Shown here in pieces: positions 27,101 through 30,100 of a DNA stretch of 64,000 bases. Origin of the DNA: Escherichia coli (lineage in GTDB: Bacteria; Pseudomonadota; Gammaproteobacteria; Enterobacterales; Enterobacteriaceae); assembly GCF_045037415.1 (NCBI RefSeq), contig NZ_CP173438.1; one strand, given 5' to 3'. Position numbers: made by a program. Every line of letters starts with the position of its first letter. Position 1 is the stretch's first letter.

Positions 27101-30100
27101 GGCTGCGGCGAGAAAACGCCAAAATGTAGTAGTGATGATGCAAAAAATCTGGTCGGGGATATTGCAAGAAAGACAATCGAGAAAGGGATGAAACTGGATA
27201 AGGATGTGCGTATTTCTGTAGAAAATGTCAGAACAATTAGCCATGAATCAGATCTGGATGTTTATCAGTGCGCTGCTGATTTAACGTTTACAAAACCAGA
27301 TTTGCAAAATTCTCTACCAATCACCTACCGGATTCAGAAAACTGATGAGGGTAAAGGTCCGTTTTATATAAACGTAACAGGTTTATAATCACTGAATAAC
27401 ATCCGGGTTCCTTTTGGGTGAAATAATTCATGTTTTATTCCAAAAGGAAACCCTATGAAAAAGATCATCATATTTACCATTATAGCTATTATCACATTTA
27501 GTTGGCTCGTTACACACAATACAACTGAGTCCGAAAAAATCCCTCCTGCTAATACTCCCTTTATTATTAAGTCTAACGTACCTGGCATGTGCAAGGTCAG
27601 CGCCATCACAACCTCTACAGATACCAAACAGAATATACCTGTCGTAGCGTGCAAAATCAGCATTACGACCGCAATCACTTCCAGTACTACCAGTTACTGA
27701 TCACTGTGTTTACTTTACCGACAGACTGGGATACAAAAACGTCAAACACCTTCTCAATCAGTCTTATACCGTAAGCAATGCCGGGTGTGTCGGGCTCTGA
27801 GGGTTGATTAATTCCACAGGCATATGAAGACTAAATCCTACCATCCCCATACCTGCTGAGCCGCTCCGTTGAACATCTTTATCGCCTTGCTGTGGGTGCC
27901 AATCACGGCTATCCCCGCCCGTCTTGTAGGTTGGGGCTCACCAAATACGATGCCACTGGGAAGCTCTTTCAGTGTCACGTAATGCCATTTATAGCCCAGA
28001 TATGACCTGCTACTGAGCTAACTACATTGATTTGCCTAAATCCTGGGGCCTCTAAAGCGTCAGCGCCGCGCAGCAGTATAGGCAAGCCACTTTTAACGGG
28101 TTTTATCCGGCTCCCTGAGGCTGCTTTCAGAAAAGGCGTGTAATCGGATAACTACAGCAACCTAGGGAAGTATGTGCTTGTAGAATGAATGCAGTGGTAA
28201 TCAAGACTACCGCTTTTACAAACCCCACCAATCGTATAACTGCGATTTGATGGCTACCCATCCTAAGTTACTTCATTAAAATAGCACTATTTTTTGAGGG
28301 CAGCGGGATAAGGGCTCTGCGCTCTCCATCCATTGCATGTTCACCCGCAAACCATTCGTAATGAACTTTATTCATGATTGATACCGGCGGTTCTTTATTC
28401 TCTATAACTATGATTTGTAAGGTATCAGGCAATTGGGTCAGTGAATGCCAGAAGCCTTCCTCAATACCAGCCGATATGGGTTCATCGAAGCCCGATACCG
28501 TAGCAGCGGCTTTCTTCTTATAACTTGTCAGCGGTGAATCAATCACGACTAGCCCAGGATGCGGGTATCCTTTTTTAATACAATATTTTAGTAATCCAAT
28601 GATGAAAGCTGAATAAAGAATGGCACGAACACCTTTACCGTGAGACTGCCGAGGTTGTCCATCAACAATGATGTCATACTCTTTTTCATTAAATGAAACG
28701 TCAGGCTCGGCACCCCATTTCCAGTCTTTTAAAACAGTTTCAATTTCTCTACAAAGTTCGGCCAGCGTACGGGTAGATAATCCCTCCCATTCGAGCCGTG
28801 GTTGACTGCTCTTTTCCAGCAGTATTTCTATATCCTTTTGATGTTTTAGTAACTCAAACCATCTCTGTCGATCATTCAACTCAGAGTCTCTTTCAGCTCG
28901 CTGCTCAATAGCTAAATCTAGGCTTTCTTTGGAAAGTGTAAGAAGAGGCTCAAAAGTATATTTGATCTGGTTCTTCATTCCATCCAAGCTTTCTTTTGAC
29001 TTATATCTGTCTATATTCAGAGCTTCTTTTCTTCGGTCAAGATCACTCATCGCTTTTTGCAGGCCTGCAAGGTATCCATGAATTTTTGCAGCTTCAGCTA
29101 AAGAAGAACGTCGGACTTCATTACTGTTCATTAATTTTTTAGCGTTCTCACTGTGTGGATGTAGTAAATTTTGTCCACAAAGGGAACAAGGAACTTCCTG
29201 AAGTGAAGTGAAATAGTGAGAACCTTCGGAAATAAAATCCAACCGCTTCAGGTCGGAATGGTAACGTTCTTCTAATAGGCTATATCTCGATTGAATTTCA
29301 GATACTCCCATTAACTGAGATTCTATTTTTAACGTTAACGCTGTCTCCATTTTTATTCCCTCGAGCAAGTCAGAAATAGCGGCTGCAGCCCTCTCAACTT
29401 CATCAATTGCTTGTGCAATCAATTGATCTGATAAATCATCTGCTGAGCTCGTTAATGGAAACTTGGGCGAACAAATTGAGAAACGTTCATCAAGTGGTCG
29501 AATCAAATCCTGGATGAATTCAAGCTTCGCCATCAACCTCGCTTTTACAATTTCAGGCTTTTCCTCTACGGTAACACCACCATCATCGTGCCCGGTAAGG
29601 ATGTATGAAAACATGCGTTTTCGAGCAGTGTCGTCATAACCGGAACGTCCCGTTACTGGCGAGTATTCGTCGATAATGGATACTTCATCTACCAAAAATA
29701 TAGGAGCGAGCGTTCGAATCGAGAAACGTTGCGTTTCGCCACGAGCATTCTTGCGAAGCTTCGCCTCTTTGATCCCCGCAAAAGGGAAAAGTATGGACGT
29801 CACATCTGGCCCCTTACTCGTTCCTTTACGCACAGGAGCAATTATTTTACCTTCTCCATGGATGTCTTGAATAGCGACATCATGTGCCTCTAATTTCCCC
29901 CCCTCAAGACCGCGCTTGAGCGTTAACACCCCCCCTTCATCATTTTCGAATTCAACATAAAGATGGGTGTAATCGGTGGCCTCTTTAAGCTTTTTTTTGA
30001 GTTTTTCGGCACCAAGAATGTAGTCAAGACAACTCACAAGGTAACTTTTCCCAGTATCAGATTCCCCTGCTAGAATATTCGCACCCTTATAGAAATCAAC

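What the first reader, a model, noticed from the sequence alone, without database searches (positions are those of the whole stretch)
27780..28260. Non-coding stretch that may hold a decayed gene fragment
The 570-bp gap between the small-protein cluster and the ATPase gene has no ORF of 60 aa or more, but a minus-strand reading frame yields protein-like text (…VFGEPQPTRRAGIAVIGTHSKAIKMF…). It may be a relic of a gene (possibly a transposase or integrase fragment) marking a former element boundary.
Basis: inference. Interest (0 to 1): 0.2.

Follow-up and report, generated by a model that had tools for sequence, protein, structure and literature searches.

The report
Dead homing-endonuclease gene fragment
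The unannotated gap holds a 319-base, frameshifted remnant of the DNA-binding part of a homing-endonuclease-like gene, left beside a later-acquired Lamassu phage-defence cassette in an E. coli genomic island; it is an ordinary genomic scar with no sign of function.

Summary
Window 27701-28267 has no ORF of 60 aa or more, and the quoted peptide is a 46-aa minus-strand ORF at 27838-27978. Open-frame length is not above chance (longest 59 aa; shuffle mean 80), so the case rests on homology.

An exhaustive HMMER search of the six-frame translation against 1.84 billion proteins found one real relative, P0003 (577 aa, E = 6.5e-11). A frameshift-aware alignment places window 28151->27833 (minus strand) on residues 434-546 of its relative P0005. 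It shows 63/114 identities, two frameshifts, two small in-frame deletions and no stops, scoring 243 against 35 ± 5.5 for shuffles.

These relatives carry I-HmuI NUMOD-like repeats and match phage homing/HNH-endonuclease families. They sit on plasmid-like or phage-plasmid-like contigs. The relic covers about 1.5 of their four repeats. The nuclease part and the C-terminus are missing.

The relic starts 23 bp from the 3' end of a Lamassu (ABC-3C) cassette. That cassette ends at the same point in three other genera, none of which has the relic.

So "decayed gene fragment at an element junction" is right, and "transposase or integrase" is wrong. No RNA family, promoter, terminator or structure signal was found. 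This is an ordinary scar of low interest.

The parts
27833..28151 (-). Pseudogene relic: an internal fragment of a homing-endonuclease-like gene. It covers NUMOD-like helix-turn-helix repeat unit 2 and the first half of unit 3 (of four), equivalent to P0005 residues 434-546 and P0003 residues 353-465.
   Evidence: phmmer E = 6.5e-11 against 1.84e9 proteins. tblastn gives colinear HSPs with sum E = 3e-19. The frameshift-aware alignment has 63/114 identities, 2 frameshifts and 0 stops, scoring 243 against 35.3 ± 5.5 for shuffles. An HMM built from 12 repeat units hits only this place in the 64-kb window.
28011..28151 (-). Relic segment 1 (first reading frame): LSDYTPFLKAASGSRIKPV..KSGLPILLRGADALEAPGFRQINVVSSV, matching P0003 353-404, with a 5-codon deletion.
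   Evidence: tblastn gives 55.8% identity over 52 columns. Repeat-HMM E = 4e-7. It is 68.5% identical at the DNA level to the P0005 gene over 127 nt.
27895..28008 (-). Relic segment 2 (second frame, after a frameshift near 28000-28010): RSYLGYKWHYVTLKELPSGIVFGEPQPTRRAGIAVIGT, matching P0003 408-444.
   Evidence: tblastn gives 52.6-58.3% identity. Repeat-HMM E = 2.3e-3.
27833..27895 (-). Relic segment 3 (third frame, after a frameshift near 27887-27895): PQQGDKDVQRSGSAGMGMVGF, matching P0003 445-465. Detectable homology ends here.
   Evidence: tblastn gives 52.4% identity over 21 columns, colinear with segments 1 and 2. Beyond 27833 the score equals that of shuffles (26 against 25.9 ± 4.9).
27838..27978 (-). 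It is a chance ORF made of relic frame 2 plus out-of-frame read-through. It also appears as a called protein (P0002) in public gene calls.
28152..28173 (.). 22-bp junction between the relic and the end of the Lamassu cassette. It has no assignable homology.
   Evidence: Cassette homology ends at 28174 (RIT691), 28169 (Pantoea) and 28178 (Serratia). The relic alignment starts at 28151.
28174..28267 (-). 3' untranslated flank of the Lamassu (ABC-3C) cassette, downstream of the lmuB stop codon. It is conserved with the cassette in three other genera and is not part of the relic.
   Evidence: blastn of the cassette: 84-90% identity over window 31886/31917 to 28169/28178. Alignments A1 and A3.
28193..28214 (-). 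Conserved hairpin in the cassette's 3' flank (AGCGGTA-N8-TACCGCT in the other genera; TACCACT here, giving one C·A mismatch). No U-tract follows, so it is not a canonical intrinsic terminator.
   Evidence: Alignment A3, fold and the terminator scan, which found none.
27701..27832 (.). 132 bp of unassigned DNA between the relic and the stop of the 81-aa + strand ORF. No detectable homology to the endonuclease family or to anything else searched.
   Evidence: (tail test)

Best explanation
Window 27833-28151 (minus strand) is a non-functional remnant of a gene of the homing-endonuclease-like kind. Intact relatives of 339-668 aa combine an N-terminal nuclease or zinc-finger module, helical 'DPEW' repeats and two to four C-terminal I-HmuI NUMOD-like helix-turn-helix repeats. 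They are found on plasmid-like and phage-plasmid-like contigs of enterobacteria. Shown: only about 113 codons survive, from the middle of the DNA-binding repeat region, and they are broken by two frameshifts. The nuclease part and the C-terminus are gone, and no start codon, ribosome-binding site, promoter or terminator goes with the fragment. Inferred history: the gene once sat, on the minus strand, in the variable cargo bay of the integrative island between ychF and dhaR of this (ST131-type) E. coli lineage. Its 5' two-thirds were lost when the 3.7-kb Lamassu (lmuA-lmuC-lmuB) cassette arrived by recombination; that cassette's 3' end lies 23 bp from the relic. Its 3' end was lost in a separate deletion or junction event. 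The remainder then drifted neutrally and was inherited clonally. It does nothing today, apart from possibly being transcribed passively by read-through from lmuB.
For: Homology: phmmer of the six-frame translation against 1.84 billion representative proteins gave P0003 at E = 6.5e-11 with 4 stretches. The only other hits were ORFs called on this same DNA. tblastn gave three colinear HSPs in three frames, covering P0003 353-404, 408-444 and 445-465, with sum E = 3e-19 against the whole window. The result is the same for P0005, and weaker for P0006 and P0007. The frameshift-aware alignment has 63/114 identities, 2 frameshifts, deletions of 5 and 3 codons, and 0 stops. It scores 243 against 35.3 ± 5.5 in 100 shuffles, and the plus strand scores 31. 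An HMM of 12 repeat units hits only these two segments among 3456 six-frame segments of the window. Family identity: PF22083 I-HmuI NUMOD-like matches P0003 (6e-12) and P0005 (6.7e-9), both above cut-off. PHROG 655 'homing endonuclease' and PHROG 20162 'HNH endonuclease' also match the relatives. tblastn of P0003 hits annotated homing endonucleases of T4-like phages. Context of relatives: Rep3, ParM/StbA, CcdAB and resolvase genes as neighbours. Truncation at the cassette end: the Lamassu cassette is shared at 84-90% identity with loci in RIT691, Pantoea and Serratia/Enterobacter, and ends at window 28169-28178 in all three; none has the relic downstream. No function signal: no Rfam match; no promoter or terminator inside 27701-28267, where the only promoter-like site in the 1.4-kb scan lies outside at 27467-27495; RNA fold z = +1.0 and +0.8. 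All 505 E. coli copies are >=99% identical, which is clonal inheritance and not evidence of constraint.
Against: The corrected translation itself does not reach any Pfam or PHROG model, so family assignment is transitive through P0003 and P0005. The nearest relatives are only about 55% identical and very rare: four clusters in 5.8 billion proteins, none in complete E. coli genomes by DNA and none in IMG/VR. The source lineage is therefore unsampled. No island variant with an intact gene at this position was found, so decay in place is inferred, not shown. The order of events (cassette arrival truncating the gene, or a fragment arriving already truncated) cannot be resolved. The endonuclease activity of the family is annotation only.
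Confidence: 0.88

Rival explanations
1. The fragment travelled as part of the Lamassu cassette, as a fourth gene of the system that decayed, and was not a resident of the recipient island.
For: It lies directly downstream of lmuB, on the same strand, 23 bp from the end of detectable cassette homology.
Against: Three independent genomic contexts of the same cassette (RIT691, Pantoea, Serratia/Enterobacter) end at the same point (28169-28178). tblastn with P0005 detects no NUMOD-like sequence downstream of the cassette in any of them. Relatives of the endonuclease-like gene are not next to Lamassu genes.
Confidence: 0.06
2. The stretch is functional as RNA: a 3' UTR, a small RNA or a regulatory element of the Lamassu operon or of the converging small-protein cluster.
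For: It is probably transcribed by read-through, since no intrinsic terminator follows lmuB. A conserved hairpin lies at 28193-28214 in the cassette flank.
Against: No Rfam family matched at E <= 1 or at gathering score. Folding energy is no better than shuffles on either strand. The conserved hairpin lies in the cassette flank, outside the relic. The relic is absent from the other cassette contexts.
Confidence: 0.04
3. One of the short ORFs (46 aa at 27838-27978, or 44 aa at 28127-28261, both on the minus strand) encodes a real small protein, for instance a domesticated single DNA-binding repeat.
For: Gene callers have called these ORFs in public assemblies (P0002, P0001).
Against: Neither ORF holds a complete repeat unit. 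The 46-aa ORF is a linker plus the first third of a unit, followed by out-of-frame text. No promoter was found in the gap, and reading the sequence shows no Shine-Dalgarno motif before the GTG. ORF lengths are below the chance expectation. PGAP does not call them.
Confidence: 0.02
4. The stretch is ordinary intergenic DNA with only chance protein-like text, or a transposase/integrase fragment as first guessed.
For: Open-frame statistics are at or below chance. There were no Pfam or NCBIfam hits.
Against: There is highly significant, colinear, strand-specific homology to an endonuclease-like protein family. No transposase or integrase appeared in an exhaustive search of 1.84 billion proteins.
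Confidence: 0.01

Closest known systems
I-HmuI-type HNH homing endonucleases and their NUMOD-like C-terminal helix-turn-helix DNA-binding domain (Pfam PF22083; NUMOD modules of homing endonucleases, reviewed in PMC3943268)
   Same: The intact relatives P0003 and P0005 match PF22083 above its cut-off. P0006 and P0007 match it only below cut-off (20.9 bits against 27). The relic aligns to the very repeats that carry that match, keeping the signature ...GxxxLxGxxxxxxAGF...GYxWxY.
   Different: The relic has no nuclease domain, no start and no end, and has two frameshifts. Its own translation does not reach the Pfam model. The relatives carry two to four tandem copies of the unit plus 'DPEW' helical repeats, and have no detectable sequence match to any solved structure.
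Free-standing homing endonuclease genes of T4-like phages (Mob/Seg type), as annotated in Klebsiella, Enterobacter and Cronobacter phages
   Same: P0003 matches them at both its N-terminal part (residues 4-162, about 30% identity) and its C-terminal repeats (434-560, about 27%). PHROG 655 and 20162 also match. Like them, the relatives are stand-alone genes in mobile DNA.
   Different: Similarity is distant. The relatives sit on plasmid-like contigs, not in virulent phages. No homing or cleavage has been shown for this family.
Other gene remnants in the same E. coli island that PGAP does flag (IS91-family and IS-type transposase fragments, a truncated ATP-binding protein)
   Same: They are the same kind of object: truncated, frameshifted leftovers of earlier mobile cargo in a mosaic island.
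   Different: This one is not annotated, because its nearest intact relatives are rare and only about 55% identical. It also derives from a homing-endonuclease-like gene, not an IS element.

Membership tests
Homing-endonuclease-like proteins with I-HmuI NUMOD-like repeats (P0003/P0005/P0006/P0007 group) | Significant sequence similarity to members of the group | tested here: met
   phmmer E = 6.5e-11 over 1.84e9 proteins. tblastn sum E = 3e-19. Frameshift-aware score 243 against 35.3 ± 5.5. 55% identity over 114 columns.
Homing-endonuclease-like proteins with I-HmuI NUMOD-like repeats (P0003/P0005/P0006/P0007 group) | Repeat unit with the pattern (V/I)IG..(G)G....L.G......AGF....V......GY.W.Y | tested here: met
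   The HMM of 12 units hits 28151-27978 (E = 4e-7) and 28017-27841 (E = 2.3e-3) and nothing else in the window. One full unit and the first third of the next are present.
Homing-endonuclease-like proteins with I-HmuI NUMOD-like repeats (P0003/P0005/P0006/P0007 group) | Direct match of the sequence itself to Pfam PF22083 or to PHROG homing/HNH-endonuclease models | tested here: not met
   Neither the raw six-frame segments nor the frameshift-corrected 105-aa translation hits any model. The intact relatives do.
Homing-endonuclease-like proteins with I-HmuI NUMOD-like repeats (P0003/P0005/P0006/P0007 group) | N-terminal nuclease module (HNH / His-Me finger or equivalent) | tested here: not met
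   tblastn of full-length P0003 against all 64 kb finds nothing credible for residues 1-352. The cassette flank replaces that part.
Homing-endonuclease-like proteins with I-HmuI NUMOD-like repeats (P0003/P0005/P0006/P0007 group) | Intact open reading frame | tested here: not met
   Two frameshifts, and truncation at both ends.
Homing-endonuclease-like proteins with I-HmuI NUMOD-like repeats (P0003/P0005/P0006/P0007 group) | Site-specific DNA cleavage and homing | not testable with these tools
   No member of this group has been characterised. The name rests on Pfam and PHROG annotation.
   No Pfam or NCBIfam match at E <= 10. The exhaustive protein search returned none.
Lamassu / ABC-3C cassette (lmuA-lmuC-lmuB) | Presence of the segment with the cassette in its other genomic contexts | tested here: not met
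   The cassette ends at window 28169-28178 in RIT691, Pantoea and Serratia/Enterobacter loci, and no relic lies downstream in any of them. The genes are identified as LmuA, LmuC and LmuB by PADLOC.
Any described RNA family (Rfam 15) | Covariance-model match | tested here: not met
   No match at E <= 1 in 26500-29500. None at gathering score in this region.

The most novel reading that the evidence does not exclude
The endonuclease-like gene was an actor in building the island, not just a casualty. Under this reading, a plasmid-type, free-standing homing-endonuclease-like gene homed into the cargo bay. The double-strand breaks it made there drove the recombination that brought in neighbouring cassettes such as Lamassu, in the way T4 Seg/Mob endonucleases co-convert flanking markers. 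The relic next to a sharply bounded defence cassette would then be a footprint of endonuclease-driven cassette exchange in defence islands.
Probability: 0.04. Interest if true: 0.5.

Novelty: new member of a known kind. Interest (0 to 1): 0.15.

Why it matters
It matters little in itself. It closes a 0.9-kb hole in the annotation of an island carried by about 9% of complete E. coli genomes (505 of 5426), by showing that the 'empty' DNA is a scar of earlier cargo. It dates the Lamassu cassette as a later arrival at that spot and fixes the cassette's 3' end to within a few bases. It also shows that an exhaustive profile-type search of a six-frame translation can recover a relic that the domain libraries (Pfam, NCBIfam), a word-indexed protein search and PGAP all miss. 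The small family of plasmid-borne endonuclease-like proteins with two to four NUMOD-like repeats is uncharacterised, and is a minor lead in its own right.

Tried and rejected
- Rfam with permissive filters on 26500-29500, and at gathering score on the whole window: nothing in the gap.
- Promoter and terminator scan: none inside the gap.
- Repeat search: only short, chance-level pairs.
- RNA folding of both strands: z = +1.0 and +0.8, no structure signal.
- Open-frame statistics: at or below chance, so they cannot support coding.
- Pfam and NCBIfam on the ten longest six-frame segments: no hits.
- Pfam and PHROGs on the corrected translation: no hits.
- DNA similarity, distant mode. Phages: none. 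Plasmids: two identical copies on very large 'plasmid' records. E. coli: only >=99% identical clonal copies, so no comparative signal.
- Word-indexed protein search with the corrected translation: only an ORF called on the same DNA.
- Extension of the relic beyond 27833 towards 27701: score equal to shuffles, rejected.
- 5' part of the gene on the far side of the cassette or elsewhere in the window: not found.
- IMG/VR scan with an alignment headed by the relic: nothing.
- DNA of the P0005 gene against complete E. coli genomes: nothing.
- PDB sequence search with P0003 and P0007: nothing relevant.
- Terminal inverted or direct repeats at the Lamassu cassette ends in four contexts: none consistent, so no transposon-like mechanism is claimed.
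Full report
**Where the window comes from**

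The stretch 27650-28320 is 100% identical to a chromosomal site in 505 of 5426 complete E. coli genomes. Many of these are labelled O25b:H4-ST131. In strain SK1144 the site lies in a mosaic island between ychF and dhaR.

Around the finding, the + strand carries a conserved island backbone: tyrosine recombinase, RadC, DUF2787, HTH genes, then a cluster of small secreted proteins or lipoproteins ending at 27388. An unannotated 81-aa ORF follows at 27455-27700. The - strand carries a three-gene ABC-3C operon. PADLOC identifies it as Lamassu:
- lmuA, 31807-30668
- lmuC, 30683-30156
- lmuB, 30154-28268

Next to it is a type I-C retron RT-Toprim gene at 32042-33799. The finding is the DNA where these two converging blocks meet.

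**Checking the observation**

The gap is 27701-28267, 567 bp. PGAP annotates nothing from 27388 to 28268.

The openness of the frames is not evidence in itself. The longest stop-free stretch is 59 aa, against 79.6 ± 18.7 in 2000 dinucleotide-preserving shuffles. The count of stretches of 40 aa or more (8) is also unremarkable, with a shuffle mean of 6.2. I did notice that five open stretches tile the minus strand in shifting frames. That is what a frameshifted gene would look like, but it needed a homology test.

**Searches that found nothing**

- Rfam found nothing.
- There is no promoter-like or terminator-like site inside the gap.
- No meaningful repeats were found.
- Neither strand folds better than shuffles.
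- Pfam and NCBIfam do not match any of the ten longest six-frame segments, even at E <= 10.
- DNA searches in phages, plasmids and E. coli return only identical clonal copies. Conservation within E. coli therefore says nothing about selection.

**The decisive search**

I joined the complete six-frame translation of 27690-28280, with stops written as X, into one 1178-residue query. I ran it through the exhaustive HMMER search of 1.84 billion representative proteins. Four proteins scored below E = 0.001. Three are short ORFs called on this very DNA in other assemblies: P0001, P0002 and P0004. The fourth, P0003, is a real 577-aa protein that matches in four stretches at E = 6.5e-11.

tblastn of P0003 against the whole window gives three colinear matches in three different minus-strand frames, with sum E = 3e-19:
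- residues 353-404 to 28151-28011
- residues 408-444 to 28008-27895
- residues 445-465 to 27895-27833

I wrote a frameshift-aware alignment to test this against P0005, a 668-aa relative that is 80% identical to P0003. It places 28151->27833 on P0005 residues 434-546, with 63 identities in 114 columns, two frameshifts (near 28000 and 27887), in-frame deletions of five and three codons, and no stop codon. The score is 243, against 35.3 ± 5.5 (maximum 55) for 100 shuffles of the gap and 31 for the plus strand. The DNA itself is 68.5% identical to the P0005 gene over 127 nt.

An HMM built from the twelve repeat units of P0003, P0005, P0006 and P0007 hits exactly two of the 3456 six-frame segments of the 64-kb window. 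Both are in this place, at E = 4e-7 and 2.3e-3. Past 27833 the similarity is gone: the tail test scores 26, against 25.9 ± 4.9 for shuffles.

**What the ancestral gene was**

P0003 and P0005 match Pfam PF22083 (I-HmuI NUMOD-like domain) above its cut-off. P0006 and P0007 match it only below cut-off. All four match PHROG families named homing endonuclease or HNH endonuclease. P0003 also hits annotated homing endonucleases of T4-like Klebsiella, Enterobacter and Cronobacter phages at 26-30% identity.

The family's architecture has three parts:
- a variable N-terminal module (homing-endonuclease-like in P0003, P0006 and P0007; treble-clef zinc fingers in P0005)
- a run of 'DPEW'-type helical repeats
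- two to four tandem units of about 70 aa each, ending in GYxWxY

The group is rare: four clusters in the 5.8-billion-protein index. Its members sit among Rep3, ParM/StbA, CcdAB, HicB and resolvase genes. One is in a Leclercia adecarboxylata assembly. These are plasmid-like or phage-plasmid-like contexts.

No member has a sequence match to a solved structure, and none is characterised, so 'homing endonuclease' is an annotation and not a demonstrated activity. The relic keeps repeat unit 2 and the first third of unit 3. About 433 N-terminal and 122 C-terminal residues, in P0005 numbering, are missing. No trace of them exists elsewhere in the window.

**Why the fragment ends where it does**

The closest relatives of lmuB were traced to their contigs. 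The whole Lamassu cassette is shared with three other contexts:
- 90% identity with Enterobacteriaceae RIT691
- 87% identity with a Pantoea chromosome
- 84% identity with Serratia/Enterobacter contigs

In all three, homology runs from window 31886-31917 to 28169-28178 and then stops. The last conserved element is a hairpin at 28193-28214, followed by about 20 nt. None of these contexts has NUMOD-like sequence downstream.

The relic starts at 28151, which is 23 bp beyond that common end. So the relic belongs to the recipient site, not to the cassette. Its 5' truncation coincides with the cassette junction.

On the other side, backbone homology with other E. coli islands stops at 27391 (L003 type, followed by different cargo) or about 27592 (L004 type, followed by an IS3 fragment). 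The relic therefore lies in the variable cargo bay. The 132 bp between it and the 81-aa ORF (27701-27832), and the 22-bp junction (28152-28173), remain unassigned.

**Interpretation**

Shown: a truncated, twice-frameshifted, unexpressed-looking fragment of a NUMOD-repeat endonuclease-like gene abuts the Lamassu cassette.

Inferred: the gene was earlier cargo of the island. It lost its 5' part when Lamassu was recombined in and its 3' part in another event, and has drifted since. The absence of stop codons in the corrected frame, and only two frameshifts in 319 bp, fit a fairly recent inactivation. However, with the nearest relative at 55% identity this cannot be quantified.

I found no terminal repeats at the cassette ends, so I make no claim about how the cassette moves. 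The rivals are each disfavoured by specific results given in their entries. They are: part of the cassette, functional RNA, a real small protein, and plain intergenic DNA or a transposase.

**Comparison with what is known, and verdict**

The object works like nothing: it is a pseudogene. By descent it belongs to the homing-endonuclease-like proteins with I-HmuI NUMOD-like repeats. It meets the similarity and repeat-signature tests. It fails the tests for a nuclease domain, an intact frame and a direct Pfam match. It should therefore be filed as 'fragment derived from', not as a member.

The suggested identity (transposase or integrase) is wrong. This is an unannotated but ordinary scar, a new instance of a well-known kind of thing, and its interest is low.

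The most novel reading not excluded is that such endonuclease-like genes help drive cassette exchange in defence islands. Nothing here supports that beyond adjacency.

Noticed in passing
window 28169-31917 (minus strand); L002, L016, L017-L020: The Lamassu (lmuA-lmuC-lmuB) cassette behaves as a discrete 3.7-kb module. It has the same two ends (about 31886-31917 and 28169-28178) in four unrelated genomic contexts across E. coli, Enterobacteriaceae RIT691, Pantoea and Serratia/Enterobacter, at 84-90% identity. I found no terminal inverted or direct repeats, so how it moves is unexplained.
   Followed up: partly
window 28193-28214 (-): A hairpin (AGCGGTA-N8-TACCGCT) is conserved at the 3' end of the Lamassu cassette in all four contexts. 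The E. coli copy has a G-to-A change that creates a C·A mismatch. No U-tract follows, so it is not a canonical terminator.
   Followed up: partly
window 27455-27700 (+): An 81-aa ORF with a signal-peptide-like N-terminus (MKKIIIFTIIAIITFSW...) continues the small secreted-protein cluster, but PGAP does not annotate it. Its first half is 86% identical to another E. coli island type (L004). A 105-aa frameshift variant (P0004) is called in a public assembly.
   Followed up: partly
window 32042-33799 (-): A type I-C retron reverse transcriptase with a Toprim domain (PADLOC RT-Toprim_I-C, E = 5e-214; PGAP 'retron Ec67 family') lies immediately upstream of the Lamassu cassette. Its msr/msd RNA should lie just upstream of the gene, and Rfam reported nothing there.
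   Followed up: no
window 10729-10815 (+): Rfam matches group II intron domain V/VI (RF00029, 64.9 bits). ORFs at 9203-10297 and 10339-10725 lie just upstream and may be a split intron-encoded protein. This does not fit the coordinate offset used to map the SK1144 annotation onto this part of the window.
   Followed up: no
window 63149-63227 (-): Full-length match to the C0299 small RNA (RF00119, 111.9 bits).
   Followed up: no
window 29739-29846; L014, L015: One E. coli lineage (GCA_012482455.1 and a Logan assembly) carries the same island with a 108-bp in-frame deletion inside lmuB, giving 592 aa in place of 628 aa.
   Followed up: no
window 28130-28150; L006: A metagenome assembly of the same locus has a small indel that fuses the 44-aa ORF at 28127-28261 with relic frame 1 into a 95-aa called protein (P0001). 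This could be sequence variation or an assembly error inside the relic.
   Followed up: no
PLSDB records CP088398.1 (377 kb) and CP054248.1 (542 kb): Two very large, 'non-mobilizable' E. coli 'plasmid' records carry this chromosomal island region at 100% identity. They may be misassigned chromosome fragments.
   Followed up: no
L005, L007-L013: A small, uncharacterised family of plasmid-borne or phage-plasmid-borne proteins (339-668 aa) has interchangeable N-terminal modules, 'DPEW' helical repeats and two to four NUMOD-like repeats. In two contigs the gene lies a few genes downstream of an HTH_3 gene and a 464-468-aa HNH_2 protein.
   Followed up: partly
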